A stretch of DNA of 24,000 nucleotides from the NCBI GenBank assembly GCA_017304475.1, contig JAFKKV010000015.1, positions 229,428 to 253,427 on the forward strand, in the 5' to 3' direction. Source of the DNA: Hyphomicrobiales bacterium. Lineage in GTDB: Bacteria; Pseudomonadota; Alphaproteobacteria; Rhizobiales; Phreatobacteraceae. The translations under genes and the position numbers were made by a program. Within the stretch, counting starts at the first letter, position 1; the number at the start of each line of letters is the position of its first letter. Shown here in pieces: positions 1 to 15,835 of the stretch. The notes below the pieces were generated by a model. It did not search any database. It was not told the origin of the DNA and worked only from the letters and a program-made list of their open reading frames with translations.

Positions 1-23
1 GTAACGCCAGCGCGGATGACCCG

Positions 24-740: not shown

Positions 741-788
741 GCGCCGGCGATCCACGAACCATTCATCGCCACAGACGAGGACAAGGCC

Positions 789-1628
789 ATGCCGACCGCC
801 GCCCGCGCCATGCACGAAGACGACCCGCTGGATGATTTCGATCCGCGCGAGATCACCCTGGACGGCGTCACCAAGGTCGTCCATGTCGCCGGCACCGGGC
901 CGGCCGTGATCGTCATGACCGAAATGCCCGGCATCAGCCCGCATGTGGCGCGCTTCAGCCGCTGGGTCCGCGATGCCGGCTTCACCGTCTACATGCCTTC
1001 GCTCTTCGGCCTGGACGGCGTGGTGCGCACGGCGGAGGACGGCGCCGCGGTGTTCAAGCGGGCCTGTGTCAGCGCCGAGTTCCGTGCCTTTGCCGGCGCC
1101 GGGTCGAGCCCGGTGACGCTCTGGCTGCGGGCCCTGGCGCGGCTCGCCCATGCCGAATGCGGCGGCCCGGGCGTCGGCGCCATCGGCATGTGCTTCACCG
1201 GCAATTTCGCGCTCACCATGATGCTGGAACCGGCGGTGCTGGCGCCGGTCCTGTCCCAGCCCTCGCTGCCGCTGGACGATCCCGCCGGGACCGGCATTGC
1301 CAATGAGGAATTCCGTGCGGTGCGCGAGCGCCTGGAACGCGAGGACCTCACCGTGCTCGCCTATCGCTTCGAAGGCGACCAGTTCTGCCGGGCGCAACGC
1401 TTCGCGGCTTTCTCGGCGGCGCTTGGCGACCGGTTCATGCCGCGCGTCTTGCCCGACAGCGCCGCCAACCCCGACACCGCGCCGTTCTTCCAGCGCCACG
1501 TCGCATGTCCGCACAGCGTGGTGACCGCGCACCTGATCGACGAAGCCGGCCAGCCGACGATCGCCGCGCGCGACGAGATCCTGGCTTTCTTCGCGCACAG
1601 GCTCGCGCCGGAACGGCGCCGGGGCTGA
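789..1628 (+). CDS. dienelactone hydrolase family protein (alpha/beta hydrolase)
   Basis: 279-aa ORF with the DLH-like layout: a beta-strand/loop VIVMTEMPGISPHV early on, then a nucleophile-elbow-like IGMCFTGNFAL (compare the G-x-C-x-G-G of DLH). High GC3 in this frame. Convergent hairpin downstream. Confidence 0.7.
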   Translation: MPTAARAMHEDDPLDDFDPREITLDGVTKVVHVAGTGPAVIVMTEMPGISPHVARFSRWVRDAGFTVYMPSLFGLDGVVRTAEDGAAVFKRACVSAEFRAFAGAGSSPVTLWLRALARLAHAECGGPGVGAIGMCFTGNFALTMMLEPAVLAPVLSQPSLPLDDPAGTGIANEEFRAVRERLEREDLTVLAYRFEGDQFCRAQRFAAFSAALGDRFMPRVLPDSAANPDTAPFFQRHVACPHSVVTAHLIDEAGQPTIAARDEILAFFAHRLAPERRRG

Positions 1629-1647
1629 CGGCCTCATGCGAAACCGG

Positions 1648-1672
1648 GGCGGGCGCGTCGCGAGCGCCCGCC
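1648..1672. terminator. GC-rich hairpin between convergent genes (possible bidirectional terminator)
   Basis: ggcgggcgc (1648-1656) pairs perfectly with gcgcccgcc (1664-1672) around a 7-nt loop. It lies between the stop of the + gene (1628) and the stop of the - gene (1688). There is no strong U-tract, so intrinsic-terminator status is uncertain. Confidence 0.45.
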
Positions 1673-1687
1673 TGAATTCTCCTGACG

Positions 1688-3556: not shown

Positions 3557-3751
3557 TGCGTCGCCCTCCCGGTTGTTGGTTTTGGTGTCGTCAGGTCGCG
3601 CGGGCGCGAGCCGCGGCTTTCGCACGCGGCGCCCATGCGGTGGTTGGGGCCGGCGCGCCCGGCGAGGGGCGGCGGCGCGCCGGGCGGCATAGGCCCGGCC
3701 TCTCCGTGCTCGCGCCGCGTGATCGCGCCGCCGTTCGGCTCTTTCGTGCTT

Positions 3752-3773
3752 ATCAATCAGCCGACTGATTGAT
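3752..3773. promoter_or_regulatory. dyad-symmetric operator-like site ATCAATCAG-N4-CTGATTGAT
   Basis: Perfect 9-nt inverted arms read directly from the sequence. Same core as the sites at 12430-12445 and 12561-12580. Lies 196 nt upstream of the autotransporter ATG (3556) and 141 nt downstream of the formamidase stop (3914). Confidence 0.55.
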
Positions 3774-3913
3774 GATTGGGCCGTGCCGTTTCGCCTGGTG
3801 CGCCCTCGGGATCTGCGGGGGTCTTCGCCCGCTTGTGAATGAAGGGGGATTGTCCTGCCGGCGGGGCGATCAGCGGGTGGGGACCGCGCCCTGTGCCGCT
3901 GGTCCGGCGCTGG

Positions 3914-4870
3914 TCATGCGATGAGGGTCTTGAGCAGCAGTCCGTGCACGCCCTTCTCGCCGTTCACCGCTTGGGTGACGCGAAAATCGACGCATAGCGA
4001 GCAGAGCTGGTAGGCATGGGCGGGCGACAGACCGGTGCGATCGCCGATGAAAATGATCATCTCCCGCAGCGCCTGTTTCAGGGCCTGGTCGAGATCCTCG
4101 CCGAAGCCCATGCTGATGAAATGGCTGGGGGTTTCGGCCCTGGGAAAGCGCAGGCGGGGGTCACGCGGCCCGCCGCCCTTGTGAAGGGTCAAGGTGAGCC
4201 GGCCGGTGAGGCACATCTCCAGTGCGGTCACCGACACCTCGCCGTCGCCCTGCAAGCCATGCCCGTCACCGGCCGAGAACAGGCCGCCCTCGGCGTGAAC
4301 CGGCAGGAACAGCGTGCTTCCGGCGACCAGTTCCTTGTTGTCGAGATTGCCGCCGTGACGGCGCGGCTCCTTTGACGAGATCCGGCCGTAGGAGGGCGGC
4401 GGCGCCACGCCCATGACCCCGAAGAACGGCGCCGTCGGCAGGGCCATGCCCCAGGGCAGCCGGGCCAAACCCCTTTCGCGGTCCACGGCGACATGCGTCA
4501 GGACCATTTCGGGGAAGTCGTCCGGCAATGTCCCGGCCAGCGGGCGGATATAGGTGTAGCCCCAGTCCGATCCGAGGTCGACGGCGTCGATGCCGACCTC
4601 CAGCATGTCGCCAGGGGCCGCGCCGGCGATCCCGATCGGCCCGGTCAGGATGTGCGGAGCGAGCGAGGGCAGGCCGGCGTCGAGAACATGCCGGAGCGCG
4701 GCGGGAACCGTCATTCCCAGACCGGCCGGCGGCAGCAGCGAGGCCTTCCCGGAGACGGTCTCCAGGATGACGGTGTCGCCCGACGACACCGTCAGGATGG
4801 GCGGAAATTCGCAATCGAACATGCCGATGCGGACAGTGTCGGGCGTCGCCGCCACGCGATGCAAAGCCAA
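3914..4870 (-). CDS. acetamidase/formamidase family protein (FmdA/AmdA-like)
   Basis: 318-aa ORF. The N-terminus (...TVRIGMFDCEFPPILTVSSGDTVILETVS...) and overall pattern resemble the acetamidase/formamidase family. TTG start at 4870 is preceded by a strong RBS GGAAGGAGG (4876-4884, minus strand) with 5-nt spacing. Last gene of the minus-strand operon. Confidence 0.75.
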   Translation of the reverse strand: MALHRVAATPDTVRIGMFDCEFPPILTVSSGDTVILETVSGKASLLPPAGLGMTVPAALRHVLDAGLPSLAPHILTGPIGIAGAAPGDMLEVGIDAVDLGSDWGYTYIRPLAGTLPDDFPEMVLTHVAVDRERGLARLPWGMALPTAPFFGVMGVAPPPSYGRISSKEPRRHGGNLDNKELVAGSTLFLPVHAEGGLFSAGDGHGLQGDGEVSVTALEMCLTGRLTLTLHKGGGPRDPRLRFPRAETPSHFISMGFGEDLDQALKQALREMIIFIGDRTGLSPAHAYQLCSLCVDFRVTQAVNGEKGVHGLLLKTLIA

Positions 4871-4903
4871 GATCGCCTCCTTCCAGCGCGATATCGGGAT
4901 CGG

Positions 4904-5911
4904 TCATGAAAGCCTGGGCCGGCCGCCGGTCGCGGCATCCGAGTCGTCGTCCAGATGACAGGCCGACACATGCCCGGGGCCGACCGGCCGCAATGCCGGC
5001 TCGTCGATCCGGCAGCGGCCGACGGCCAGGGGGCAGCGCGTGTGAAAGCTGCAGCCCTTGGGCGGATTGATCGGGCTCGGCACGTCGCCGCTCAGGATGA
5101 TGCGCTGGCCTCCGGCCGCGCGTGGCCCCACGAGCGGCGCGGCCGACAGCAGCGCCTTCGTGTAGGGATGCCGCGGCGCCGCGAACAGGGCGCTGCGGGG
5201 CGCCAGTTCGACGATCTTTCCCAGATACATCACGGCGACCCGATGGGCCATGTGCTCGACGATCGCCAGGTCGTGGCTGATGAACAGCAAAGCGAGCCCG
5301 AGCTCCTCTTGCAGGTCCTGCAGCAGATTGACGATCTGCGCCTTGACCGAGACATCCAGGGCCGAGACGGCCTCGTCGCAGACGATCAGGTCGGGCTCGG
5401 CCGACAGGGCCCGGGCTATGCCGATGCGCTGCCGCTGGCCGCCGCTGAATTCGTGCGGCCATCGCTCGGCGGAGCCGCGCGGCAGCCGGACCTTGTCCAG
5501 AACCTCGGCCACCCGGCGATCGATGTCCTCACGCCGCAGGTCTGGCCAGAAGTTCCGGATCGGTTCGGCCACGATCTCGCGGACCTTGAGACGCGGGTTG
5601 AGCGAGGAGAAAGGGTCCTGGAAGACCACCTGCAGCCGCTTGCGCACCGGGCGAAAGGCCGCGGGGCCGAGATTGTCGATGCGCCCGCCGTCGAGGCTCA
5701 CCTGGCCGGCGGTGACGGGGAGCAGGCCGAGCACGGCCCGGCCGACCGTGGACTTGCCGCAGCCGCTCTCGCCGACCAGCGACAGGGTCTCGCCCCGTTC
5801 GATCGCGAAGGAGACGCCGTCGACGGCGCGCAGGCGGGCGGGGCGGCCGAGCCCGGTCCGGACCGGATAATACTTTTTCAGGCCTTCGACAGACAGCAGA
5901 GGCTGGGTCAT
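4904..5911 (-). CDS. oligopeptide/dipeptide-type ABC transporter ATP-binding protein (DppF/OppF-like)
   Basis: Walker [10 protein letters not shown], signature LSGGQRQR-like ([15 protein letters not shown]), Walker [13 protein letters not shown] and the C-terminal oligopeptide-ABC extension. Start trimmed to the ATG at 5911 ([15 protein letters not shown]), which overlaps the upstream stop as ATGA. Confidence 0.9.
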
Positions 5912-6918
5912 GCCGCCACCTCCACGTTTGCCGGGGCATAGTGACAGGCGGCCAGATGGCCCGCGGCCTTCGCCGCGAGCCGTGGCGCGACGTTGCGGCA
6001 GAGATCGGTTGCCGAGCGGCACCGGCCGGCAAAGGCGCAGCCCTGGATCTTCTCCTTGAGGCTCGGGACCGTTCCGGGAATCTCGGCGAGGCGTCCGCCG
6101 GAGCCTGCCCGACTGGCGCCGAGCGCGGGAACCGCGCCGAGCAGCCCCTGCGTATAGGGATGCCTGGGTGTGCCGAAGAGGTCGGTGGTCGCCGCCGCCT
6201 CGACCACCTGGCCGGCATACATGACGAGCACCCGCTCGGCGACTTCCCAGACCACGCCGAGATCATGGGTGATCAGGATGATCGCGGTCCCGATCCGCTG
6301 CTTGAGATCGCGCATCAGCTCCAGGATCTGCGCCTGGATCGTCACGTCGAGCGCCGTGGTCGGCTCGTCGGCGATCAGAAGCTTGGGGTCGCAGGCCAGG
6401 GCCATGGCGATCATTACCCGCTGGCACATTCCGCCGGAGAGCTCGTGCGGGTACTGGCCGATGCGCCGGCGCGGCTCCGGAATGCCCACCATGGCCAGCA
6501 TCTCGATCGCCCGGTCCTGTGCCGGGCCGCCCCGCAGGCCCTGGTGAAGGCGCAGGGTTTCGCTGATCTGCCGCCCGACCGTCAGGACCGGGTTCAGGCT
6601 CGACATGGGATCCTGGAAGATCATGCTGATCGCATTGCCGCGAATGGTCCGCATCTCCGCCTCGGACAAGGTGAGCAGCTCGCGGCCCTGGAAACGAATG
6701 CTTCCGCCAAGGCGCGCCGGGGGCTCCGGCAGAAGCCGCAGCATCGACATCGCGGTGACCGACTTGCCGCTGCCGCTTTCGCCGACGATGGCGAGGGTTT
6801 CGCCGGCATCCACGTGGAAGCTCAGGCCGTTCACGGCGCGGGCCACCCCGTCCGGCGTCAGGAAATGCGCCTGCAGGTCTTCGACCGCCAGCAAGGGCGC
6901 GTCATCGTGTTTCGTCAT
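5908..6918 (-). CDS. oligopeptide/dipeptide-type ABC transporter ATP-binding protein (DppD/OppD-like)
   Basis: Walker [10 protein letters not shown], signature [15 protein letters not shown], Walker [14 protein letters not shown]-loop ITHDL. Confidence 0.9.
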
Positions 6919-6922
6919 GATG

Positions 6923-7849
6923 TCAGGCCTTTCTGCTCATGCGCGGATCGAGCAGATCCCGCACGCCGTCGCCGAGCAGGTTCATCGCAAGGACGGTGAT
7001 GCAGAGAAAAAGGGCAGGGAACAGCACGAGATGAGGCTTGACCTGCCAGATGCCGCGCCCCTCCGCCATGATATTGCCCCAGGACGGAATGCTGGACGGG
7101 GTTCCCGCGCCCAGGAAGGACAGTGCCGCCTCGATGAGAATGGCGCTGGCGCAGATGAAGGTCGCCTGGACGGTCAGCGGACCGACGACATTGGGCAGGA
7201 TGTGGCGCATGATGATGGTCGGCGTGCGGGTGCCGCAGGCGATGGCGGCTTCCACATAGGGCTGCTCGCGGATCGCCAGGACGGCGCCGCGCACGACGCG
7301 CGAAACCCGCGGTATTTCGGTCACCGTGATCGCCAGGATGACATTCTCGATGCTGGCGCGGGTCAGCGCCATCAGCGCGATGGCCAGCAGGATCGGCGGC
7401 ACAGCCATCATGCCGTCCATGACCCGCATCAGGACATTGTCGGCCCAGCGGACATAGCCGGCGACCAATCCGACCGCCAATCCGATGCCGCAGGCCAGCA
7501 GCGCGACGGAAAAACCGACGATGAGCGAGACGCGCGCGCCGAACAGGACGCGCGAATAGACGTCGCGCCCCAGCATGTCGGTGCCGAACCAGAACTGCGC
7601 CGAAGGGTCCTGCTTGCGCAGCACGGGCGCGACCGAGGCCGGATCCTTGGTCATGAGGCCGGGCGCGAAGATCGCGATCAGCACCATGGCGAGCAGCATG
7701 AGGCCGCCGACGATCATGGTCGGATGGCGCCGGACCAGGCCATGCAGGCCGCGGGGCAGGCGGATCTCGGGAAAGAGCTCTGGAAGCTGTCTTGCGGCGA
7801 CCGCGCCTGCGCGGTGGGCCACAGCTTGATCTGCGCGATAAGCGGTCAA
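6923..7849 (-). CDS. ABC transporter permease (DppC/OppC-like)
   Basis: Multi-pass hydrophobic protein with the BPD-transport EAA-like loop (...[23 protein letters not shown]...). The start at 7849 overlaps the upstream permease stop by 4 nt. Confidence 0.88.
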
Positions 7850-8787
7850 TACCGAACCCTCGGATCAATCAGGATGTAGGCGAGGTCAATCAGCAGATTG
7901 ACGAAGACATAGGTGAACGAGAAAAACAGCACGACGCCCTGGATGACCGGATAGTCGCGCCGGAGAATGGCGTCGGCGGTCAGCCGGCCGAGGCCCGGTA
8001 TGGCGAAGACGCTTTCGGTCACGACGGCGCCGCTGACCAGCAGCGCCATGCCGATACCGACCACCGTGACGATCGGGACCGCGGCATTCTTCAAGGCGTG
8101 GATATAGAGAATGCTGGTCCGGCCGAGGCCCTTTGCCTTCGCGGTCCGGATGTAACCTTGCTGGAGAACCTCGAGCAGCGTCGCCCGTGTGGTGCGGGCG
8201 ATGATGGCGACATAGACGCCGCTCAAGGCCAGCGATGGCATCAGCAGGCCCTGCAGCCAGCCGCCGACGCCCTCCGACAGGGGCGTGTAGCCTTGAACCG
8301 GCAGCAGGCCGAGCTGCAGGCCGACGCTGTAGGCGAGCAGGTAGCCGAGCACGAAGCCGGGTATGGAGAAGCCGAACACTGCCGTCGTCATGACGATGCG
8401 GTCGATCCAGGTACCGGCCCGGGCGGCAGCCGCGATGCCGAGCGGCACGCCGATCGTCACTGCCACGACCAGCGTCACGATCATCAGGGACAGGGTCGGC
8501 TCGACGCGTTCCGCCAGCAGGGCGGCGACCGGCAGGTTGGTGAAGATCGAGCGTCCGAGATCGCCCTGCAGAATGCGCCAGGCCCAGTCCGCGAACTGGA
8601 CGAGGAACGGCTGGTCCAGCCCGAGGGAGACGCGGATACGGTCCAGCTCCGCAGGACTTGCATGATCGCCCGCGACCAGAACCGCGGGATCGCCCGGGGC
8701 GATATAGAGCAGGCTGAAGACCATGAGCGCGACCACGGCCATGACCGGGATGGTCGACAGGATCCGACGGATCAGGAAGAGAGGCAT
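7846..8787 (-). CDS. ABC transporter permease (DppB/OppB-like)
   Basis: Trimmed from the 547-aa ORF to the ATG at 8787 (MPLFLIRRILSTIPVMAVVALMVFSLLYIAPGDP, the classic DppB N-terminus). The upstream 234 aa of that ORF are Arg/Pro/Gly-rich and overlap the amidase gene out of frame. Confidence 0.9.
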   Translation of the reverse strand: MPLFLIRRILSTIPVMAVVALMVFSLLYIAPGDPAVLVAGDHASPAELDRIRVSLGLDQPFLVQFADWAWRILQGDLGRSIFTNLPVAALLAERVEPTLSLMIVTLVVAVTIGVPLGIAAAARAGTWIDRIVMTTAVFGFSIPGFVLGYLLAYSVGLQLGLLPVQGYTPLSEGVGGWLQGLLMPSLALSGVYVAIIARTTRATLLEVLQQGYIRTAKAKGLGRTSILYIHALKNAAVPIVTVVGIGMALLVSGAVVTESVFAIPGLGRLTADAILRRDYPVIQGVVLFFSFTYVFVNLLIDLAYILIDPRVRY

Positions 8788-10196
8788 GGCGAGCCTCCGG
8801 TGTCGGCGATCAAAGGCGGGTGTCTCGCGCTCAGGCCGAGCGATTGCTCCAGTGCCCCGGACACCATGAGCAGGCGCTGTTCCGAAAACCACGGACCGAC
8901 CAGTTGCAGGCCGACCGGCAGGCCGGCGGCGGTGAACCCGGCCGGCGTGGAAAGAGCGGGATGGCCGGTCAGGTTGAAGGGGTGCAGCGCGGCGGCCCAT
9001 TGCGGATAGGAACCCGGATAGGCGGGATCGATCGAGTCCAGCCGGGGGGCCGGTGTAGTCACCGTCGGCATGGCCAGGACGTCGTAGCGCTGCAGCAATC
9101 CTTGCACCGCACGAAACAGCGTGGTGCGCCGATCGCTGGCGGCCATGAAGTCGAGGGCCGACCATCCGCGGCCCTGGACGATGCCGGCGCGAAGCGTCGC
9201 GGTCATCCTGTCGCCGGCGGCATCGAAGATGTGGCCATAACGCCGGGCGCGGACCGTGCTCGCCAGCGTCGCATAGATGGAATAGAGGCCATCGAAACAG
9301 GCCTCCTTCACCTCTTCGACAGCCGCGCCAAGGGCCGACAAGCGCGACATCGCGGCTTGCGTCAGGGCCAGCACTTCGGTTTCGGTGCGATACTCGCCGA
9401 AATGGGCGATCCAGCCGACCCGCAGGCCGCGGATCGACATCCGTTCCGGCTCGACGGGCGCCGCGAGCGCGAACGGATCGGCCGGACAAGGCCCTTGCAT
9501 GACCGAGAGCAGCAGCGCGACATCATCCGTGACCCGCGCCATCGGGCCGACATAGGCGAAATTGCCGAAACTATCAGGCGCGGCCTCGTTCGGGATCCGC
9601 CCGAGCGTCGGCTTGAGGCCGAGAACCCCGGTCCAGGCCGCGGGGCAGCGGATGGATCCGCCGCCATCGGTTGCGACCGCGAGAGGAGCCAGCCCGGCGG
9701 CGAGCGCCGCGCCGGCGCCGCCGCTGGACCCGCCCGGGGAGTGCTCCCGGTTCCAGGGATTGAGGGTCACGCCGTCGGCCAGGTTCTCGGTCAGCATCTT
9801 ATGAGCGAATTCCGGCAGCGTGGTCTTACCGATGACGATGGCACCGGCGGCCTTGACCCGGCCGACCGCCAGCGCATCCGTCGCCGGCACGACGGCTTCG
9901 GCGGCGATCGATCCGTTGCGGAGCGGCACTCCGGCAAGGCTGACATTGTCCTTGACGGTGATCGGCACGCCATGAAGCGGGCCGAGCTCCTTGCCGGACA
10001 TGACCTCCGCTTCGGCGAGGCGCGCCGCGGCGCGCGCCTCGTCGGGCATGAGCAGGGCGAAGGCGTTGAGCGAGGGATTGAGCCGCGCGATACGCGCCAG
10101 CACGGCTTCCGTCACCTCGACCGGCGACAGCTGGCGCGACGCGATCAGGGCGGCCATTCGCGTGGCCGGCATGTCGCAGAGTTCGTCCCGGTTCAT
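8772..10196 (-). CDS. amidase (amidase-signature family, GatA-like fold)
   Basis: The AS signature GGSSGG and the downstream ...ATDGGGSIRCPAA... are present. Start trimmed to the ATG at 10196 (MNRDELCDMPATRMAALI...), 9 nt after the upstream cupin stop. Confidence 0.88.
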   Translation of the reverse strand: MNRDELCDMPATRMAALIASRQLSPVEVTEAVLARIARLNPSLNAFALLMPDEARAAARLAEAEVMSGKELGPLHGVPITVKDNVSLAGVPLRNGSIAAEAVVPATDALAVGRVKAAGAIVIGKTTLPEFAHKMLTENLADGVTLNPWNREHSPGGSSGGAGAALAAGLAPLAVATDGGGSIRCPAAWTGVLGLKPTLGRIPNEAAPDSFGNFAYVGPMARVTDDVALLLSVMQGPCPADPFALAAPVEPERMSIRGLRVGWIAHFGEYRTETEVLALTQAAMSRLSALGAAVEEVKEACFDGLYSIYATLASTVRARRYGHIFDAAGDRMTATLRAGIVQGRGWSALDFMAASDRRTTLFRAVQGLLQRYDVLAMPTVTTPAPRLDSIDPAYPGSYPQWAAALHPFNLTGHPALSTPAGFTAAGLPVGLQLVGPWFSEQRLLMVSGALEQSLGLSARHPPLIADTGGSPCLSS

Positions 10197-10204
10197 GGGA
10201 TGCC

Positions 10205-10756
10205 TCAGCCTTTCGACGCCGCATGCGTTTCGGTGATCTTGCCCCGCTCGTCGCGGCCCACTCCCTTGGCGCGCGCGGCTTGCGTGACTTCGTCGACCCA
10301 ATCCACGCTGCCCGGATCGTCACCGCCGATGATCACCAGGAGCAGGGCGTCGATGGCGCTTTCATTGCGAAAGCCACGCAGCACGCCGACTGGCAGCGAG
10401 ATCACGTCATAGGGCTCGAGGAACAACTCGTTCTCGCCTCGGTCGCCCCATTGCACCGAGAACCGCCCGGTGAGGGGCATGAAGACCTCCACCGTCTTGT
10501 GATTGTGCAGGGCGCTTCCCTTGCCCGGACCGGCCCGCACGATGGACAGGTGGAAACCCTCGACATCGGTGATCGGCGGGCTGATCGAGGGATCCTCGGC
10601 AACGCCGCTGCCGATGATGCTGAGCAGCTCGCGCTGATACTGTGGCATCACGGCATCGATCAAAGGCATCGTGCTCGGTTTCAGTTCCTTGAAGATGGCG
10701 ACGCGCTTGCGCATGTCTTCGACGCTGACCTGACGATTTGACACTGTCTTCTCCAT
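10205..10756 (-). CDS. cupin domain protein
   Basis: Cupin motif 1 is readable: G-SALHNH-KTVE-VFMPLTG (H-x-H-x3-E-x6-G). Start trimmed to the ATG at 10756 (MEKTVSNRQ...). The longer ORF would run into the substrate-binding-protein gene. Confidence 0.72.
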   Translation of the reverse strand: MEKTVSNRQVSVEDMRKRVAIFKELKPSTMPLIDAVMPQYQRELLSIIGSGVAEDPSISPPITDVEGFHLSIVRAGPGKGSALHNHKTVEVFMPLTGRFSVQWGDRGENELFLEPYDVISLPVGVLRGFRNESAIDALLLVIIGGDDPGSVDWVDEVTQAARAKGVGRDERGKITETHAASKG

Positions 10757-10781
10757 TGGTGATGAGCTTGCGGCGCGGTTT

Positions 10782-12359
10782 TCAGCGCTTCTCGATATTC
10801 CAGTAGGGTTGAACATAGGCGTGCAGAACGCCGGCGATATTGGCGCGATAGGCATTCACCACCTCCCATTGGCCGACGGGCACATAGGGCAGGAACTGCC
10901 AGAGATGTTCCGCGAAGGGCCCGAAGGCCGCCTTGGCCGAGGCCGCGTCGGTGGCGCGCAGGAAGCGCTGGCGAAGCGCTTCGCCCGCCTCGTCGCAGGG
11001 GAAACCCGGCCAGTTCTGGCCGCCGCAGGACAGGTCCAGGGCCGAATTGGTCAGCGGATGAAACCAGATGCTGCCGGTGGCGTTGTAGGCGAACAGGTGA
11101 TAGCCGCCGGTCGCTGGTGTCCGGTCCTTGTTGCGGACCCGCTGCAACAGCGTGGGAAGGTCGGTCACCTGCAGGTCGACCTTCACGCCGGCCTGCCGGA
11201 GGCGCTGGGCCAGGACCTGCGCCACGACATTGTTGGGGCCCGTCGGCGTGCTCAGCAACACGATCGTTTCGCCGCGATAACCGGCTTCAGCGAGCAGGCG
11301 CCGGGCCCGCTCGACATCCAGCCGGCGATAGGGCTCCGCGCCAGCTTCCGTTCCAAGCGCCGTCCCGCAGACGCCGAAGCCGTAGCAGGTCTTCCAGTCG
11401 GCATCGCCGGCGACCGCAGGCATGATCTCGTTCTGATCGACCAGCAGGGCGATCGCCTGGCGCGCCCTGACGTCATTGAACGGTGGAAAGCGAAAATTGG
11501 GACGGACGAAGGACACGAAAGGCAGGCCATTCGGCCTCACGCGCAGGCCGCGGGCACGCAGAAAGGCGATCTGGTCCGGGTCGGCCTCGGCCCAGAAGTC
11601 GGCCTGGCCGGCGGCCAGCGCATTCGAGGCGGTCGTCGCGTCGGGCAGTATGAGCCATTCGACCCGGTCGACCTTGACCACCCTTGCGCCGGCGAGACCA
11701 TCGGTCGGCTCGCTGCGCGCGGGATAGTCGGGATTTCGCGCGAAGACGACGCGGCTGCCTTCCAGCCGCTCGCCATCGACATAGCGAAACGGGCCGGAGC
11801 CGATGACCGGCACCGGCATCGGCGTGTTGTAGGGCCGCTTCGCGTCGGCCTCGCGCATGATCGCCGGGATCGGTGATCCGGCTCCGGCCAGCAGAAATTC
11901 GACGAGGCCGAAAGGCTCCGTCAGGACGAGGCTGATATTGCGGTCATCCTCGGCGGTCATGGTGGCCAGGCGCGACTTCAGCTGCGCGCCGACCGAGGTA
12001 TTGTCCATCCAGCGCGCGATGGAGGCCGTCACGTCGCGCGCGGTGACCGGGCTTCCGTCATGGAAACGCAGGCCGCTTCGCAAGGTGTAGTGCCGCCTGA
12101 GGCCGTCCTCGCTGAGCGAGAAGCTCTCGACCATCATGGGTTTCGCCGACAGCGTGCTGTCGAGCGCGAAGAGCGTGTCGAACACCATTTGCGCATAGAC
12201 GCGCGAAACCCGGCTGCTGCCCTGTGTCGGGTCCAGGTCGGTGACGTCGCCGCTGACGACGCGCAGCACCTGCGGGCCCTTCTGGGCGGCGGCGCCGCCA
12301 ATGCCCGGCGCGAGCAGGAAGGTCGAAAGCGCCACGGCAAAGAGCTTCGGAAATCTCAT
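10782..12359 (-). CDS. ABC transporter substrate-binding protein (family 5, DppA/OppA-like)
   Basis: Start trimmed to the ATG at 12359 (MRFPKLFAVALSTFLLAPGIGGAAAQ, a signal peptide), preceded by GGAGGG. About 525 aa, the typical size and composition for SBP family 5. First gene of the operon. Confidence 0.85.
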   Translation of the reverse strand: MRFPKLFAVALSTFLLAPGIGGAAAQKGPQVLRVVSGDVTDLDPTQGSSRVSRVYAQMVFDTLFALDSTLSAKPMMVESFSLSEDGLRRHYTLRSGLRFHDGSPVTARDVTASIARWMDNTSVGAQLKSRLATMTAEDDRNISLVLTEPFGLVEFLLAGAGSPIPAIMREADAKRPYNTPMPVPVIGSGPFRYVDGERLEGSRVVFARNPDYPARSEPTDGLAGARVVKVDRVEWLILPDATTASNALAAGQADFWAEADPDQIAFLRARGLRVRPNGLPFVSFVRPNFRFPPFNDVRARQAIALLVDQNEIMPAVAGDADWKTCYGFGVCGTALGTEAGAEPYRRLDVERARRLLAEAGYRGETIVLLSTPTGPNNVVAQVLAQRLRQAGVKVDLQVTDLPTLLQRVRNKDRTPATGGYHLFAYNATGSIWFHPLTNSALDLSCGGQNWPGFPCDEAGEALRQRFLRATDAASAKAAFGPFAEHLWQFLPYVPVGQWEVVNAYRANIAGVLHAYVQPYWNIEKR

Positions 12360-12429
12360 GGGGCTGCCCTCCAGGCCTCTCGCGAACGTCGTGTCGAGAG
12401 CCGCGAGCATACAGAGGGCGAATTGGGAG

Positions 12430-12445
12430 TCAATCAGCTGATTGA
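12430..12445. promoter_or_regulatory. perfect 16-nt palindrome TCAATCAGCTGATTGA (candidate TetR operator)
   Basis: Read directly from the sequence. Centre lies about 78 nt upstream of the SBP start codon, in the AT-richer divergent intergenic region shared with the TetR gene. Confidence 0.6.
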
Positions 12446-12560
12446 TTGATTAAATTCAAGGTCCGATCACGTTCGGTCGATCATGGCCTTTCCTGTTGGT
12501 TTTCCAGACGGTTGTGATCGGACATCTGGATTCAGTGGTCCGGCTCTTCCAAGGCATATG

Positions 12561-12580
12561 TCAATCAGGCGAATGATTGA
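12561..12580. promoter_or_regulatory. dyad TCAATCA-N6-TGATTGA (candidate TetR operator / autoregulatory site)
   Basis: Perfect 7-nt arms. It aligns to the 3753-3772 site as TCAATCAG-N4-(C/A)TGATTGA. Lies 121 nt upstream of the TetR ORF start. Confidence 0.55.
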
Positions 12581-12700
12581 ATAAGCAGCTGAGATGCGCT
12601 AGATGCTGGGTCCGGCCGGGGTGAACGAAGCCCCGAGGGGGCATCAGGTCGCTGACGAGGCCCCGCATCCGACGACATCGAGTTTGGGACATTTTCGAAA

Positions 12701-13396
12701 TTGAAAAACCGCAGTCGCGCCTCGGACGAACAGACACCGGAATACTGGATTTCCTCCACGCGCCGGCCGGTCCGGTCCAAGCGGACGCGCGATCCCGAGC
12801 GTACGCGGCAAAACCTGCTGGACGCCGCCTACAGGGAGTTCGCCCATCTCGGCTATCACGCCGCCAGCATCGCCCGCATCTGCAAGCGGGCCGGCGTCAG
12901 CAACCAGATCCTGTCCCATCATTTCGGCTCGAAGGAGAAGGCCTATCTCGCCGTTCTCGAGGCGGCCTATGTCGCGTTCCGGTCGAATGATCCAAGTCTC
13001 GACCCGAACGCCGCCGATCCGCTGGCCGCGCTGCGCGACTTCGTGACGTTCATGTTCGATCATGTCCAAGAGAACAGGGATTTCGTCAGCCTGTTGAGCA
13101 GCGAAAACATCAACAAGGGCAAGATCATCGGAAAATCGAAGACCTTGAAGGCGATGTACGAACCGCTGATTCAACGGCTCGACGCGCTGGTCAGGAATGG
13201 CGAGAATGCCGGGGTTTTCCGGCCGGGCATCGATGCGCGCCAGCTCTATATCAGCATCAGCGCCTTGTGTTTCTTCAATATTTCCAACGCCTACACCCTG
13301 TCGGCGGTCCTCGATACGGATCTGACGCAAGACGCAGCCCTTGCGGAACGGCGCCAGCACGTCATCGACTTCGCCATGGCCGCGGTCGTTGCCTAG
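12701..13396 (+). CDS. TetR/AcrR family transcriptional regulator
   Basis: N-terminal TetR HTH pattern (RTRQNLLDAAYREFAHLGYHAASIARICKRAGVSNQILSHHFGSKEKAYLAVLE) followed by a helical ligand-binding-type C-terminal domain. The listed start at 12701 is TTG and there is no upstream in-frame ATG, so the exact start is uncertain. Confidence 0.85.
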   Translation: MKNRSRASDEQTPEYWISSTRRPVRSKRTRDPERTRQNLLDAAYREFAHLGYHAASIARICKRAGVSNQILSHHFGSKEKAYLAVLEAAYVAFRSNDPSLDPNAADPLAALRDFVTFMFDHVQENRDFVSLLSSENINKGKIIGKSKTLKAMYEPLIQRLDALVRNGENAGVFRPGIDARQLYISISALCFFNISNAYTLSAVLDTDLTQDAALAERRQHVIDFAMAAVVA

Positions 13397-13442
13397 TGTT
13401 GCTGCACGGTGATGATGATGGCTTGATTTCCCCGAGTGGATA

Positions 13443-13598
13443 AATTCGTGGATGCCCGGGACAAGCCCGGGCAAGACGAGAATTGTCCTCGGAGCGACAG
13501 GTGCTGGACCGACCGAGCGCAGAACCCGCGCCGTGGCCCTGCACACAGCAAGATCAACACATCGTCTTGCCCGGGCTTGTCCCGGGCATCCATGAATT
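13443..13598. repeat. REP/MITE-like element: 37-nt inverted repeats (36/37 match) flanking an 82-nt spacer
   Basis: Arm 1, 13443-13479: aattcgtggatgcccgggacaagcccgggcaagacga. Arm 2, 13562-13598, is its reverse complement with one C/T mismatch. Each arm also contains an internal CCCGGG-N5-CCCGGG hairpin. The motif resembles the dispersed intergenic repeats seen in Bradyrhizobium/Rhodopseudomonas-type genomes (recollection, not searched). Confidence 0.6.
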
Positions 13599-13992
13599 GT
13601 TGCTCCAGAATCAAACGGTCACAATCACAACCCAACGATACTAACCGCCCACGCCGGTTCGGTCGGCCGGCGACGAGGCTTCGCCCGGCTGACGGAAGGC
13701 GAGGGGGCCGAGGCCGCGACGCCCCCGGCGGGATCTGCTAAGGTGCCGGCGTCTGACGCGATGCACGGCCCGATGCGGCCGTACCGCCTCCGGCGGCATC
13801 CAGGCCATTGCGCATTCCGCGACACCGCGTCCTCGACATGCTCAGCGCAAGGCGGAGCGCCGGTTCGGCGATCCCGCGTGGTTCCGTCGATTCCGCCGAA
13901 TGCGCGATTCCGCCGAGTCCGCCTGTTGTCGCGCAACGGCCGGGCGGCAAGGGCTGCCGCGGCGGATGACGACGATGGCCTGCCGGCTGGCT

Positions 13993-14009
13993 GGGCAACG
14001 GCTTTGCCC
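13993..14009. promoter_or_regulatory. dyad GGGCAA-N5-TTGCCC upstream of the reb cluster
   Basis: Perfect 6-nt inverted arms read from the sequence, 181 nt upstream of the first rebB ATG. A TTGACG hexamer follows at 14013-14018. Confidence 0.4.
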
Positions 14010-14117
14010 GTATTGACGTTCCGGCATGCCCGTTTTTCCGCAATCTGAGCGAGTATTTTCAGCGTCCACGCCAATCTTCCGCGTTCTGGCGTCCCTAGGG
14101 TGGGCGCGCTCCATCAA

Positions 14118-14134
14118 GGCAACCGAAAGTTGCC
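14118..14134. promoter_or_regulatory. dyad GGCAAC-N5-GTTGCC (contains CAAC-N5-GTTG; candidate PraR/XRE-type repressor box)
   Basis: Perfect 6-nt inverted arms, ending 56 nt upstream of the first rebB ATG (14190). Confidence 0.5.
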
Positions 14135-14189
14135 CCGGGAGCTCGCCGGCTGCGTCGGCGGGGGCACACTCAGCACGCGAGGAGAGGCA

Positions 14190-14474
14190 ATGGCATTCCC
14201 CACAGCCGTCAACGACCAGATCACCGACTCGGTGACGCAGGCCAACGTCAAGGTGCTGGGCGACGCGCCCGCCATCGCCATGGGCAATCTCTACCAGGCG
14301 ACCGCCCAGGCGCTCGCCAATGCGGCCCACAATGCCGCCAACGCCCAGCAGCAGAGCTACGTCACCAGCCAGGCGGCAACGACGATGGGGGTCGCGACCC
14401 TCTATTCGCTCGACACCGCGGCGACCGGCGTCGCCACCAAGGACATCCTCACGCCGTCGGTCCGCGGCCTCTAA
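14190..14474 (+). CDS. rebB: RebB-family R-body subunit, paralog 1 (94 aa)
   Basis: Trimmed to the ATG at 14190 (RBS GGAGAGG at 14181-14187). MAFPTAVNDQITDSVTQANVKVLGDAPAIAMGNLYQATAQALANAAHNAANAQQQSYV... matches my recollection of the RebB 'killing trait' domain (VNSQITD.VTQ.N..VLG..PA.AM..LY). Confidence 0.85.
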   Translation: MAFPTAVNDQITDSVTQANVKVLGDAPAIAMGNLYQATAQALANAAHNAANAQQQSYVTSQAATTMGVATLYSLDTAATGVATKDILTPSVRGL

Positions 14475-14550: not shown

Positions 14551-14820
14551 ATGGCATTCCCGACGGCTGTCAACAGCCAGATCACCGACTCGGTCACCCA
14601 GGCCAATACCAAAGTGCTGGGCGACGCCCCGGCCATCGCCATGGGCAATCTCTATCAGGCGACCGCCCAGGCGCTCGCCAATGCGGCGCACAACGCCACC
14701 AATGCCCAGCAGCAGAGCTATGTGACCGCCCAGGCCGCCACCACCATGGGGGTCGCGACCCTGTACTCGCTCGACACCGCGGCCACCGGCGTGGCGACCA
14801 AGGACATCCTGTCGTCCTGA
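14551..14820 (+). CDS. rebB: RebB-family R-body subunit, paralog 2 (89 aa)
   Basis: RBS AGGAGG 7 nt upstream. Only about 4 substitutions versus paralog 1 over the first 87 aa, by eye. Confidence 0.85.
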   Translation: MAFPTAVNSQITDSVTQANTKVLGDAPAIAMGNLYQATAQALANAAHNATNAQQQSYVTAQAATTMGVATLYSLDTAATGVATKDILSS

Positions 14821-14906
14821 CGCGCATCTCGCCGGCCCTTAGTCGCCTAAGGACAGGGGCCAGCGACGCAGTGTCTCCGGAATGACGATCCCAAGGATTT
14901 CCAGCC

Positions 14907-15173
14907 ATGGCCTTTCCGACCGCCGTCAATGATCAGATCACGGACTCCGTGACCCAGGCCAATGTCCAGGTGCTCGGCGCTTCGCCGGCCATCGCCATGG
15001 GCAATCTCTATCAGGCCACCGCCCAGGCCCTGGCCAATGCGGCGCATAACGCCACCATGGCGCAGCAGCAGATGTATGTGACGGCCCAGGCCGCCACCAC
15101 CACGGGCGTTGCTCTGCTCTATTCCCTCGGCACCGCGTCGACGGGAGTGGCGACCAAGAAAATCCTCGGATGA
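14907..15173 (+). CDS. rebB: RebB-family R-body subunit, paralog 3 (88 aa)
   Basis: Same MAFPTAVNDQITDSVTQANV... N-terminus. About 12 substitutions versus paralog 1 over 87 aa, by eye. Confidence 0.85.
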   Translation: MAFPTAVNDQITDSVTQANVQVLGASPAIAMGNLYQATAQALANAAHNATMAQQQMYVTAQAATTTGVALLYSLGTASTGVATKKILG

Positions 15174-15240
15174 CGCGCCGGCGGCGTCCCGGCGCCGCCT
15201 GATCCCGCCATAACCCCCTGCACGACAAGGAGCATCTTCG

Positions 15241-15504
15241 ATGGCTTTCCCGACATCGCTCAACAGCCAGATCACCGACTCCATCACCCAGGTCAATACC
15301 AAGGTCCTGGGCGACGCGCCGGCAATGGCCATGGGCAACCTGTTCGTCACCACGAGCCAGGCCCTTTCCAACGCCGCCCACAATGCCACCAACAACCAGC
15401 AGCAGTCCTATGTCACCATGCAGGCCTCGACCGCCCAGGCCGTCGCCACGCTGCTGACCGTCGACACCGCCTCCACCGGCATGGCGACCCACAAGATCTA
15501 CTGA
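15241..15504 (+). CDS. rebB: RebB-family R-body subunit, paralog 4 (87 aa, more diverged)
   Basis: MAFPTSLNSQITDSITQVNTKVLGDAPAMAMGNLFVTTSQALSNAAHNATNNQQQSYV... RBS AAGGAG upstream. Confidence 0.85.
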   Translation: MAFPTSLNSQITDSITQVNTKVLGDAPAMAMGNLFVTTSQALSNAAHNATNNQQQSYVTMQASTAQAVATLLTVDTASTGMATHKIY

Positions 15505-15598
15505 CGCGAAGCCGTGACGAGGTCCGTTCGCGCCATCGGCCGGACGGACAGCGGCCGGTCCGCATAGGGGGCGCCGTCCCAGGCGGGGGAATGTCAGC

Positions 15599-15835
15599 GT
15601 GGCCGAGGGATCCGGCATCGCGACCATGACCGGCTCGGTCGCGACGGGCGTGACGCTGAACGTGGCGCTCGCCCCGTCGGCGGCCATGGCGATGACCTAC
15701 CTGGCCGGCGCCGACAGCATCGCGCTCGCCATGGCCAATGCGGTGGCCAATCAGCAGCGCGGCCAGGTCATCGCCAATGCCGCCACGGTTCAGGCTCTGG
15801 CGCTGATCATTTCGAAGGGAGCTACAGGCACATGA
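15599..15835 (+). CDS. divergent RebB-like protein lacking the N-terminal VNSQITD motif (78 aa)
   Basis: GTG start preceded by GGGGGA. The core aligns to RebB: VTLNVALAPSAAMAMTYLAGADSIALAMANAVANQQRGQVIANAATVQALALIIS versus VTQANVKVLGDAPAIAMGNLYQATAQALANAAHNAANAQQQSYVTSQAATTMGVATLYS. Its stop overlaps the next ATG (ATGA at 15832-15835). Confidence 0.6.
   Translation: MAEGSGIATMTGSVATGVTLNVALAPSAAMAMTYLAGADSIALAMANAVANQQRGQVIANAATVQALALIISKGATGT

What the first reader, a model, noticed from the sequence alone, without database searches (positions are those of the whole stretch)
14118..14134. GGCAAC-N5-GTTGCC dyad 56 nt upstream of rebB1: possible PraR-type repressor box
Seen in the sequence: a perfect 6+5+6 palindrome containing CAAC-N5-GTTG. 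Established knowledge, from recollection and to be verified: the XRE-family regulator PraR of rhizobia is reported to recognise a CAAC-N5-GTTG type site. In Azorhizobium caulinodans, PraR directly represses the reb operon through multiple sites, with derepression by low temperature and 2-oxoglutarate. A site this close to the start codon would block initiation or elongation. This suggests the R-body genes here are normally silenced by a conserved host-interaction regulator encoded elsewhere.
Basis: partly seen in the sequence, partly recalled or inferred. Interest (0 to 1): 0.6.

Follow-up and report, generated by a model that had tools for sequence, protein, structure and literature searches.

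The report
Candidate PraR operator in reb leader
A 17-base palindrome just upstream of an R-body gene cluster in a Phreatobacter-like soil/water bacterium exactly matches the binding consensus of PraR, the repressor known to silence R-body genes in Azorhizobium. It also forms the tip of an mRNA leader hairpin that R-body operons carry in general, so repressor binding is plausible but unproven.

Summary
The dyad GGCAACCGAAAGTTGCC is real (14118-14134, 55 nt before the rebB1 ATG). It is the only perfect CAAC-N5-GTTG in the window. The literature confirms this as the SELEX consensus of PraR in Rhizobium and Azorhizobium, and confirms that PraR represses the Azorhizobium reb operon. The window comes from a Hyphomicrobiales MAG close to Phreatobacter. 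The 8-base core is invariant in all four Phreatobacter-lineage haplotypes, while the flanks and spacer vary.

Three things weaken the simple reading. (i) No other reb promoter has the site (107 non-redundant, 11 of the fetched loci named alphaproteobacterial). (ii) The Azorhizobium reb promoter itself has only degenerate sites and a different cassette type. (iii) The dyad is the apical stem of a 35-nt hairpin that starts at the predicted +1 of a conserved promoter (CCAATC-N18-CTAGGGT). A 5' leader hairpin is a family-wide, covarying feature of these reb operons, including in bacteria outside the class where PraR orthologues are reported.

My verdict is a probable (about 0.5) PraR-type operator at about +11..+27, built into a leader hairpin. 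The main rival (about 0.3) is a hairpin only, with a coincidental match. I could not test whether the genome encodes PraR. This is a new member of a known kind, of moderate interest.

The parts
14040..14045 (+). Distal CCAAT-like box (GCAATC), a possible upstream activator site
   Evidence: Lies 31 nt upstream of the proximal box and is conserved in P. stygius. Gammaproteobacterial reb promoters show tandem ACCAAT boxes 21 nt apart. Its function is inferred only.
14071..14076 (+). Proximal CCAATC box in the -35 position of the reb promoter
   Evidence: CCAAT[CT]-N18-nTAnnnT occurs in 47 of 107 non-redundant reb upstream regions, against 0.17 in shuffles, 80-182 nt before the ATG. It is invariant in the Phreatobacter lineage.
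14095..14101 (+). -10 element CTAGGGT (TAnnnT core at 14096-14101); predicted +1 at about 14107-14109
   Evidence: It is the second block of the conserved promoter motif and is invariant. The transcription start is inferred from spacing and has not been mapped. No canonical sigma-70 consensus promoter was found in the region, which fits an activator-dependent promoter.
14108..14112 (+). 5' arm (GCUCC) of the outer stem of leader hairpin 1
   Evidence: Pairs with 14138-14142 in the MFE and centroid folds. The variants GCUCC/GGGGC (L003) and GUUCC/GGGGC (P. stygius) keep pairing through G-U.
14118..14134 (.). The dyad GGCAAC-CGAAA-GTTGCC. It is the candidate PraR-type operator (core CAAC 14120-14123, GTTG 14129-14132) and the apical stem-loop of hairpin 1.
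   Evidence: The core is invariant in 4 haplotypes, while the N5 spacer varies (CGAAA, CGACA, TGAAA) and the last C is T in most. The RNA stem-loop alone has -7.2 kcal/mol.
14138..14142 (+). 3' arm (GGAGC) of the outer stem of hairpin 1
   Evidence: The whole 35-nt hairpin (14108-14142) has -15.7 kcal/mol and z = -3.76, with 0 of 200 shuffles as stable. The interval was chosen after the fact.
14143..14161 (+). Leader hairpin 2 (UCGCCGGC-UGC-GUCGGCGG), followed by GGGGC
   Evidence: -11.6 kcal/mol. The second half of the leader is almost invariant in the lineage. A hairpin followed by GGCGGGG recurs in other reb leaders that carry the promoter motif.
14179..14187 (+). Shine-Dalgarno sequence GAGGAGAGG
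   Evidence: Read from the sequence. Invariant.
14190..14474 (+). rebB1, the first gene of the reb cluster
   Evidence: Pfam RebB, E = 1e-30. The identical protein is annotated 'RebB family R body protein [Hyphomicrobiales bacterium]'.
14551..17991 (+). Rest of the Group-1 reb cassette: rebB2-4 (14551-15504), two Reb-like genes (15599-16455), a 116-aa gene (16500-16850) and a 366-aa gene (16891-17991)
   Evidence: The gene sizes match HP1.4, HP1.3, HP1.2 and HP1.1 of Raymann et al.. The genes are syntenic in most fetched loci.
22248..23918 (-). AAA+ (sigma54-interaction-like, no GAFTGA) regulator with an AraC-type HTH, the probable cassette activator
   Evidence: Pfam matches. The GAFTGA motif is absent. 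Homologues lie next to reb genes in 81 loci (window included). Its role at the CCAAT boxes is inferred.

Best explanation
The 17-mer is most likely an operator for the host's PraR/PhrR/CdxA-family XRE repressor. It sits at about +11 to +27 of the reb operon promoter, so a bound dimer would block RNA polymerase escape or early elongation. That would keep a horizontally acquired Group-1 R-body cassette silent unless the repressor is relieved.

The operator is not free-standing. It is built into the apical stem of a 35-nt hairpin at the 5' end of the predicted transcript, a structural element that Group-1 reb leaders have in general.

Shown: the exact consensus match; its uniqueness in the window; its invariance within the Phreatobacter lineage; its position relative to a promoter motif conserved across taxa; the fold.

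Taken from the literature: the PraR consensus, PraR repression of reb in Azorhizobium, and conservation of the regulator across the Alphaproteobacteria.

Inferred: the transcription start, the presence and specificity of PraR in this organism, binding itself, and the mode of repression.
For: - The site is a perfect CAAC-N5-GTTG and the only one in 24 kb. It is also the only one in the 21-kb P. stygius locus.
- The chance of a perfect site is about 0.001 per 100 nt and about 0.008 for the whole intergenic region.
- The consensus was obtained independently by SELEX for two Hyphomicrobiales PraR proteins, and PraR is the one regulator shown to bind a reb promoter directly as a repressor (PMC5527310).
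- The experimentally bound Azorhizobium sites carry 2-3 mismatches, so a perfect site should bind at least as well.
- The 8 core bases show no change in 4 haplotypes. In the same comparison roughly a third of the first ~42 leader positions differ between the window and P. stygius (my count), and 2 of the 5 spacer positions vary.
- The site lies just 3' of the conserved promoter CCAATC-N18-CTAGGGT.
- The host is a Hyphomicrobiales MAG near Phreatobacter.
- The PraR orthologue CdxA and its gene neighbourhood are reported to be conserved across the Alphaproteobacteria.
- The HTH region is nearly identical in ten diverse family members, which fits a shared specificity.
Against: - The regulator's presence in this genome was not verified. 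No PraR-family gene lies in the window or in any fetched reb locus.
- The site is absent from all other reb promoters. Among 107 non-redundant 250-nt upstream regions, a perfect match occurs only in this lineage. Across that whole set about 0.2 chance sites would be expected.
- The Azorhizobium precedent involves a different cassette type and degenerate sites.
- There is one site only.
- The dyad symmetry has an independent explanation. A 5'-proximal hairpin is a family-wide feature of these leaders and covaries in gammaproteobacteria.
- The three substitutions seen in stem positions all break DNA symmetry but keep RNA pairing through G-U.
- Frederix 2014 reports a different MEME motif (TTGCAA) for PraR-bound Rhizobium promoters.
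Confidence: 0.5

Rival explanations
1. RNA hairpin only. The dyad is the apical stem-loop of a hairpin at the 5' end of the reb mRNA. The hairpin acts at the RNA level, most likely by protecting a very highly expressed structural-gene transcript from 5'-end-dependent decay, or as a site for an RNA-binding factor. The match to the PraR consensus is a coincidence.
For: - The 35-nt interval 14108-14142 folds into a two-tier hairpin that starts at the predicted +1. It has -15.7 kcal/mol, and 0 of 200 shuffles are as stable.
- The same fold holds in L003 and P. stygius despite many substitutions, and all three stem changes are wobble-compatible.
- Across 42-44 non-redundant reb leaders, the first 45 nt fold better than dinucleotide shuffles (mean z = -1.13, p about 4e-7). 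Control segments upstream of the promoter and just before the ATG do not (z = -0.13 and -0.04).
- In gammaproteobacterial leaders the hairpin covaries: 7 of 9 pairs show changes on both sides, 0 of 500 shuffles reach the observed covariation score or percentage of paired cells (1 of 500 for cells changed on both sides), and slid registers collapse.
- Other leaders with the same promoter motif carry unrelated hairpins at the same place.
Against: - A hairpin-only model does not predict CAAC/GTTG next to a 5-nt loop. My estimate for that coincidence is roughly 0.001-0.003.
- Within the lineage there are no compensatory double changes, only three one-sided ones, and each has about a 50% chance of keeping the pair.
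- The whole-leader MFE is unremarkable (z = -0.85 and -0.44).
- The TSS is not mapped.
- Bradyrhizobium leaders lack the hairpin.
Confidence: 0.3
2. Operator for a different DNA-binding protein. Candidates are another HTH repressor of the host or a cassette-encoded factor.
For: - The position at about +11..+27 and the conserved dyad would suit any dimeric repressor.
- Several regulators lie nearby: a TetR gene at 12701-13396 and the AAA+/AraC regulator at 22248-23918.
Against: - TetR is adjacent only in the window and L002, yet the dyad is conserved in L003 and P. stygius, where other genes lie upstream.
- The AAA+/AraC regulator is conserved in 81 loci (window included), but the dyad is not. 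From general knowledge, AraC-type HTH domains usually read direct repeats.
- There is no RebR gene and no RebR box in the promoter.
- No other regulator is known with this consensus.
Confidence: 0.08
3. A chance palindrome with no function of its own, conserved only because the whole leader is young and little diverged.
For: - Perfect 6-N5-6 palindromes are abundant (29 in the window, 5 in this intergenic region).
- Only four closely related haplotypes exist.
- The downstream half of the leader is even more conserved than the dyad.
- One perfect site among 107 reb promoters is not far from chance (about 0.2 expected).
Against: - The first ~42 nt of the leader are its most variable part (roughly a third of positions differ between the window and P. 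stygius, my count), yet the core is untouched.
- Position, fold and consensus match coincide.
- The hairpin position is conserved across the family.
Confidence: 0.12

Closest known systems
PraR binding sites A, B and C in the Azorhizobium caulinodans ORS571 reb promoter (Matsuoka et al. 2017, PMC5527310)
   Same: An XRE-family repressor site in the promoter or leader of an R-body operon in a Hyphomicrobiales bacterium. The consensus is the same, CAAC-N5-GTTG. An activator-dependent promoter is overridden by a repressor.
   Different: - The Azorhizobium sites are degenerate: CAAT-N5-ATAG, CTAC-N5-GTTC and CGAC-N5-GTTC. There are three of them.
- That operon carries RebR (Crp-Fnr) and genes unrelated to this cassette.
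- Here there is one perfect site, a Group-1 cassette with an AAA+/AraC regulator, a non-symbiotic host lineage, and an overlap with an RNA hairpin.
- Binding here is untested.
[quoted passage not shown]
   Same: The same regulator family, and the same SELEX consensus as cited in PMC5527310.
   Different: The targets are adhesin, quorum-sensing and biofilm genes. The MEME motif reported for those promoters is TTGCAA. Relief is by the anti-repressor CinS. No reb genes are involved.
CdxA, RtrA, RtrB, CdxB and phage phiCbK TgrL of Caulobacter (PMC10688885)
   Same: CdxA is the PraR orthologue. These are global XRE regulators with many chromosomal sites. The HTH region is nearly identical across family members.
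   Different: The ChIP motif has one strong and one weak half-site, and its sequence is not given in the text I could read. The targets are holdfast and GTA genes.
5'-terminal stabilising stem-loops of bacterial mRNAs (for example the ompA leader; from general knowledge, not checked here)
   Same: A stable hairpin that starts at or within a few nucleotides of +1 of a highly expressed transcript.
   Different: No half-life data exist for any reb mRNA, and the TSS here is only predicted.
Pseudomonas aeruginosa PA14 reb cluster control by RcgA and FecI2 (bioRxiv 10.1101/2020.10.26.356394)
   Same: Cassette-linked regulators drive a reb promoter.
   Different: That cluster carries a linked sigma factor and transcription factor, the kind of pair Raymann et al. 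describe for Group 2 (my assignment). No PraR is involved and no operator or leader structure is described.

Membership tests
PraR/PhrR/CdxA-type (XRE family) operator | Match to the SELEX consensus palindrome CAAC-N5-GTTG | tested here: met
   Perfect match at 14120-14132 and the only one in the window. The consensus was checked in PMC5527310.
PraR/PhrR/CdxA-type (XRE family) operator | Position in or next to the promoter that is compatible with repression | tested here: inconclusive
   The site lies 17-33 nt downstream of the conserved -10 element, so at about +11..+27. The TSS is inferred, not mapped.
PraR/PhrR/CdxA-type (XRE family) operator | Cognate regulator encoded in the same genome | not tested
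   No PraR-family gene lies in the window or in any fetched reb locus. The literature reports the orthologue across the Alphaproteobacteria.
PraR/PhrR/CdxA-type (XRE family) operator | Conservation upstream of orthologous reb clusters in PraR-bearing hosts | tested here: inconclusive
   Met within the Phreatobacter lineage (4 haplotypes). Not met in Bradyrhizobium, Brevundimonas, Sphingomonas, Erythrobacter, Allosphingosinicella or Elstera.
PraR/PhrR/CdxA-type (XRE family) operator | Binding by purified PraR, and derepression in a praR mutant | not testable with these tools
   Needs EMSA and genetics.
5'-terminal leader hairpin of Group-1 reb operons | Stable local hairpin that begins at the predicted transcript 5' end | tested here: met
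   14108-14142 has -15.7 kcal/mol and z = -3.76. The same fold appears in L003 and P. stygius. The start depends on the inferred TSS.
5'-terminal leader hairpin of Group-1 reb operons | Structural conservation, with covariation, among homologous leaders | tested here: met
   Family-wide excess stability is specific to the first 45 nt. Covariation is seen in the gammaproteobacterial group. Within Phreatobacter there are only three one-sided, wobble-compatible changes.
Sigma-54 (-24/-12) promoter | GG-N10-GC spacing within TGGCAC-N5-TTGC | tested here: not met
   The dyad reads GG-N12-GC. A correctly spaced GGGCAACGGCTTTGC at 13994-14008 is not conserved in L003 or P. stygius. The neighbouring AAA+ regulator lacks GAFTGA.
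Intrinsic terminator | GC-rich stem followed by a T run | tested here: not met
   No terminator-like site in 13300-14300. The stem is followed by CCCGGGAG.
RebR (Crp-Fnr) box | GT(A/G)(A/C)C-N4-G(T/G)(T/C)AC in the promoter, and a rebR gene in the operon | tested here: not met
   No match with one mismatch or fewer in the intergenic region. No Crp-Fnr gene was found among the cluster ORFs tested.
Operator of the adjacent TetR regulator | Co-occurrence of the operator with the regulator gene | tested here: not met
   The dyad is conserved in L003 and P. stygius, where no TetR gene lies upstream.
Known RNA family (Rfam) | Covariance-model match | tested here: not met
   The only hit is a sub-threshold chance match elsewhere in the region.

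The most novel reading that the evidence does not exclude
The Group-1 R-body cassette travels between proteobacterial classes with its own regulatory module. That module would consist of an activator-dependent promoter (tandem CCAAT boxes, CCAATC-N18-CTAnnnT), a GAFTGA-less AAA+/AraC regulator, and a covarying 5'-terminal leader hairpin. In the Phreatobacter lineage the apical stem of that hairpin would have been reshaped into a perfect operator for the resident global XRE regulator PraR. One 17-mer would then work twice: as DNA, letting the host silence an acquired toxic organelle, and as RNA, stabilising the transcript once it is made.
Probability: 0.2. Interest if true: 0.55.

Novelty: new member of a known kind. 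Interest (0 to 1): 0.36.

Why it matters
R-bodies damage eukaryotic cells, and their expression is tightly restricted. Only two control circuits have been worked out: PraR/RebR in Azorhizobium, and RcgA/FecI2 in Pseudomonas.

A perfect PraR consensus in the leader of a different (Group-1) reb cassette, in a free-living groundwater genus, would show that PraR silencing of R-body genes is not peculiar to one legume symbiont. It would also give a much cleaner site for binding and 2-oxoglutarate-relief experiments than the degenerate Azorhizobium sites.

The by-products may be of wider use for predicting when R-bodies are made. They are a promoter motif shared by about 40% of reb upstream regions, a linked AAA+/AraC regulator, and a covarying leader hairpin. 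None of these is described in the reb papers I could read.

Tried and rejected
- Sigma-54 promoter. The dyad has GG-N12-GC, which is the wrong spacing. The correctly spaced palindrome at 13993-14009 is not conserved. The nearby AAA+ regulator lacks GAFTGA.
- Intrinsic terminator and canonical sigma-70 promoter scans found none.
- Rfam gave no hit.
- RebR box: none in the promoter region.
- TetR operator: rejected on co-occurrence.
- Additional degenerate PraR sites, as in Azorhizobium: none conserved.
- Search for the source among plasmids found only short, distant hits.
- Search for a PraR gene. I obtained a family member (phiCbK TgrL) and searched with it. It retrieved family members but nothing assignable to Phreatobacter. 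tblastn against every fetched locus found none. Akiba 2010 is not held in the paper library.
- More Phreatobacter-type leaders. The metagenome scan and three look-ups of RebB1 relatives at 90% identity or more returned only unrelated leaders, so the lineage sample stays at four haplotypes.
- My first ORF choice for the downstream regulator (22042-23748, minus strand) was in the wrong frame and gave no Pfam hit. I corrected it to 22248-23918.

Full report
**Observation.** Window 14118-14134 reads GGCAACCGAAAGTTGCC. The rebB1 ORF begins with ATG at 14190, behind a GAGGAGAGG Shine-Dalgarno sequence, and gives a full-length Pfam RebB match, so 55 nt separate the dyad from the start codon. CAAC-N5-GTTG occurs once in the 24-kb window, against 0.15 expected. 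From local composition the chance of a perfect site is about 0.008 for the 793-nt intergenic region and about 0.001 per 100 nt. Dyad symmetry as such is not unusual here. The window holds 29 perfect 6-N5-6 palindromes, against 11.5 in shuffles, and five lie in this intergenic region.

**Literature check.** Matsuoka et al. 2017 (PMC5527310) state the following. PraR of R. leguminosarum (Frederix 2011) and of A. caulinodans (their own SELEX) share the consensus CAAC-N5-GTTG. PraR binds three sites in the A. caulinodans reb promoter and dominantly represses it. RebR (Crp-Fnr) activates it. Low temperature raises expression, and 2-oxoglutarate inhibits PraR binding. The same paper also says that no sequence in that promoter matches the consensus perfectly or with one substitution. 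The bound sites are CAAT-N5-ATAG, CTAC-N5-GTTC and CGAC-N5-GTTC (Fig. S5 text). Frederix 2014 reports a different MEME motif, TTGCAA, for PraR-bound Rhizobium promoters.

**Source and context.** The window's proteins are exact matches to a MAG labelled Rhizobiales/Hyphomicrobiales bacterium (for example MBN8940901.1, on a 315-kb contig). The 366-aa cluster protein falls in the same 90%-identity cluster as one from Phreatobacter stygius, a genus of the Hyphomicrobiales. The cluster contains:
- four RebB genes;
- two Reb-like genes (78 and 207 aa);
- a 116-aa and a 366-aa gene of no known family;
- further large ORFs.

By gene sizes this is the Group 1 synteny pattern (HP1.4, HP1.3, HP1.2, HP1.1) of Raymann et al. 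2013. The A. caulinodans operon carries a Crp-Fnr regulator and other accessory genes, which fits their mutually exclusive Group 2 pattern; that assignment is my inference. The precedent for PraR control therefore comes from a different cassette type.

**Conservation within the lineage.** The identical RebB1 protein occurs on four other contigs, and I fetched the P. stygius locus as well. Aligning the upstream regions gives four haplotypes.
- The core CAAC...GTTG, and GGCAAC/GTTGC, are invariant.
- The spacer varies: CGAAA, CGACA, TGAAA.
- The last C of the 17-mer is T in every sequence except the window and L002.
- The 3-5 nt on either side of the dyad are the most variable part of the leader.
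- By my count, about 14 of the first 42 leader positions differ between the window and P. stygius, but none of the 8 core positions.
- The second half of the leader is almost invariant.
- In the 21-kb P. stygius locus the reb leader site is again the only perfect match, and no additional degenerate site is conserved.

**Conservation beyond the lineage.** A genome-collection scan and a metagenome scan with RebB1 returned 159 loci from alpha-, beta-, gamma- and deltaproteobacteria and other phyla. None has CAAC-N5-GTTG with one mismatch or fewer at a comparable position. That includes the named alphaproteobacterial loci from Bradyrhizobium, Brevundimonas, Sphingomonas, Erythrobacter, Allosphingosinicella and Elstera. 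RebB1 relatives at 90% identity or more sit behind unrelated leaders. Over the 107 non-redundant 250-nt upstream regions, roughly 0.2 chance sites would be expected, so at the level of the whole data set one lineage with a site is only mildly surprising. For this window taken on its own, the a-priori chance is about 0.001-0.008.

**What surrounds the dyad.** Comparing the upstream regions exposed a promoter-like motif, CCAAT[CT]-N18-nTAnnnT. It occurs in 47 of 107 non-redundant reb upstream regions, against 0.17 in shuffles, 80-182 nt before the first reb start codon. In the window it is CCAATC (14071-14076) and CTAGGGT (14095-14101). The region has no canonical sigma-70 consensus. A second CCAAT-like box lies upstream, 31 nt away here and 21 nt away in gammaproteobacterial loci. 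A regulator with a sigma54-interaction-like AAA+ domain lacking GAFTGA and an AraC-type HTH (22248-23918, minus strand) accompanies reb genes in 81 loci (window included). I infer an activator-dependent promoter with +1 near 14107-14109, which puts the dyad at about +11..+27.

**The hairpin.** The dyad is flanked by GCUCC (14108-14112) and GGAGC (14138-14142). The 35-nt interval folds into a two-tier hairpin of -15.7 kcal/mol, and none of 200 shuffles folds as well. A second hairpin follows at 14143-14161. The same fold holds in L003 and P. stygius. All three substitutions in stem positions (C to U twice, A to G once) retain pairing through G-U while breaking DNA symmetry. This is suggestive only, because each such transition has about an even chance of keeping a pair.

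The family-wide evidence is stronger:
- In 42-44 non-redundant leaders the first 45 nt after the predicted start fold better than dinucleotide shuffles (mean z = -1.13, p about 4e-7).
- The 45 nt upstream of the CCAAT box and the last 45 nt before the ATG do not (z = -0.13 and -0.04).
- In gammaproteobacterial leaders the hairpin shows covariation. Seven of 9 pairs have changes on both sides, 0 of 500 shuffles reach the observed covariation score or percentage of paired cells, and slid registers collapse.
- Other leaders that carry the same promoter motif have unrelated hairpins at the same place.

A palindrome at this position is therefore expected whether or not PraR is involved.

**Weighing the readings.** The hairpin explains why there is a dyad, and why it is here. 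It does not explain why the four pairs next to a 5-nt loop spell CAAC/GTTG. By my estimate the chance of that is about 0.001-0.003. The one regulator known to bind a reb promoter as a repressor has exactly this optimum. Its orthologue is reported to be conserved, with its gene neighbourhood, across the Alphaproteobacteria (PMC10688885). The HTH region is nearly identical in ten diverse family members, including a phage copy.

Against this:
- the site is absent from all other reb promoters;
- the cassette type differs from the Azorhizobium precedent;
- there is only a single site;
- I could not check that Phreatobacter encodes PraR.

My probabilities are:

| Reading | Probability |
|---|---|
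| A PraR-type repressor binds here (with or without an RNA role for the hairpin) | about 0.5 |
| Hairpin only, consensus match coincidental | about 0.3 |
| Operator for a different regulator | about 0.08 |
| No function | about 0.12 |

**Mechanism proposed.** RNA polymerase, recruited by the cassette's activator at the CCAAT boxes, initiates at about 14108. A PraR dimer on CAAC-N5-GTTG, centred near +19, would block promoter escape or early elongation. When the repressor is relieved, the first 35 nt of the transcript fold into hairpin 1, which probably protects the 5' end. In Azorhizobium relief comes from 2-oxoglutarate, and in Rhizobium from the anti-repressor CinS. Only the sequence features and folds are shown here; every functional step is inferred.

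**Alternatives excluded.**
- Sigma-54 promoter: the spacing is GG-N12-GC, and the regulator lacks GAFTGA.
- Intrinsic terminator: no T run.
- RebR box: none.
- Operator of the upstream TetR: the dyad persists where TetR is absent.
- Known RNA family: no Rfam match.

**Novelty.** If binding is confirmed, this is a new member of a known kind: a PraR operator on a second, different reb operon, in a non-symbiotic genus. The promoter motif, the AAA+/AraC regulator and the leader hairpin are not mentioned in the reb papers I could read. They may deserve separate follow-up.

Noticed in passing
window 14040-14101; loci L005-L163: A promoter-like motif, CCAAT[CT]-N18-nTAnnnT, precedes the first reb gene in 47 of 107 non-redundant upstream regions from several proteobacterial classes (0.17 expected). 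It often comes with a second CCAAT box one or more helical turns upstream (21 nt in gammaproteobacterial loci, 31 nt here).
   Followed up: partly
window 22248-23918 (minus strand): A 556-aa regulator has a sigma54-interaction-like AAA+ domain, no GAFTGA motif, apparently degenerate Walker motifs and a C-terminal AraC-type HTH. Homologues lie next to reb genes in 81 loci (window included). It is the probable cassette activator and is not discussed in the reb papers I read.
   Followed up: partly
leaders of L009-L032 and others; alignment A3: A 5'-proximal leader hairpin is a family-wide feature of Group-1 reb operons. The first 45 nt have mean z = -1.13, against about 0 in control segments, and gammaproteobacterial loci show clear covariation.
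   Followed up: yes
window 14143-14189: The second leader hairpin and the stretch GGGGGCACACTCAGCACGCGAGGAGAGGCA are almost invariant in the Phreatobacter lineage. A hairpin followed by GGCGGGG recurs in other reb leaders with the same promoter motif. The function is unknown.
   Followed up: partly
window 13443-13598: A pair of 37-nt inverted repeats, 97% complementary and 82 nt apart, lies just downstream of the TetR gene. Each arm contains its own palindrome (TGCCCGGGACAAGCCCGGGCA). It looks like a MITE or REP-type element.
   Followed up: no
window 13993-14009: A second perfect 6-N5-6 palindrome, GGGCAACGGCTTTGCCC, shares GGCAA/TTGCC arms with the dyad and has sigma-54-like GG-N10-GC spacing. 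It is present in the window, L002 and L004 but not conserved in L003 or P. stygius.
   Followed up: partly
L052, L054, L057 (Bradyrhizobium), about 110 nt before the first reb ATG: GTTG(T/C)TGCAACGCCGGTTGG lies just 3' of a -10-like CCTTAGGT. It contains CAAC-N4-GTTG (two mismatches in the N5 register). In two of the three loci it also contains TTGCAA, the MEME motif reported for PraR-bound Rhizobium promoters. These leaders lack the 5' hairpin. This is a weak lead for PraR-type control in a second Hyphomicrobiales genus.
   Followed up: partly
window 13876-13923: Direct repeats of GATTCCGCC-type units (GCGTGGTTCCGTCGATTCCGCC and GCGCGATTCCGCCGAGTCCGCC, 26 nt apart) lie in a block about 270-310 nt upstream of rebB1. 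The block is conserved in L003 and P. stygius. It may be an upstream regulator-binding region.
   Followed up: no
window 1-13400 compared with L003 and L166: The flanks of the reb cassette differ among Phreatobacter-lineage genomes. A block of about 11 kb (ABC transporter, amidase, cupin, TetR) separates the dienelactone hydrolase gene from reb only in the window lineage (the reb-proximal part of the block, from the SBP gene to TetR, is also on L002).
   Followed up: no
window, whole: There are 29 perfect 6-N5-6 palindromes, against 11.5 in mononucleotide shuffles. Most are GC-rich and lie inside coding regions.
   Followed up: no
L005, L039 and others: RebB1 is 92-94% identical to proteins of betaproteobacteria (Rugamonas, Hydrogenophaga). 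RebB1 relatives at 90% identity or more sit behind unrelated leaders, some next to transposase genes (L167-L169). This fits extensive horizontal transfer with promoter replacement.
   Followed up: partly
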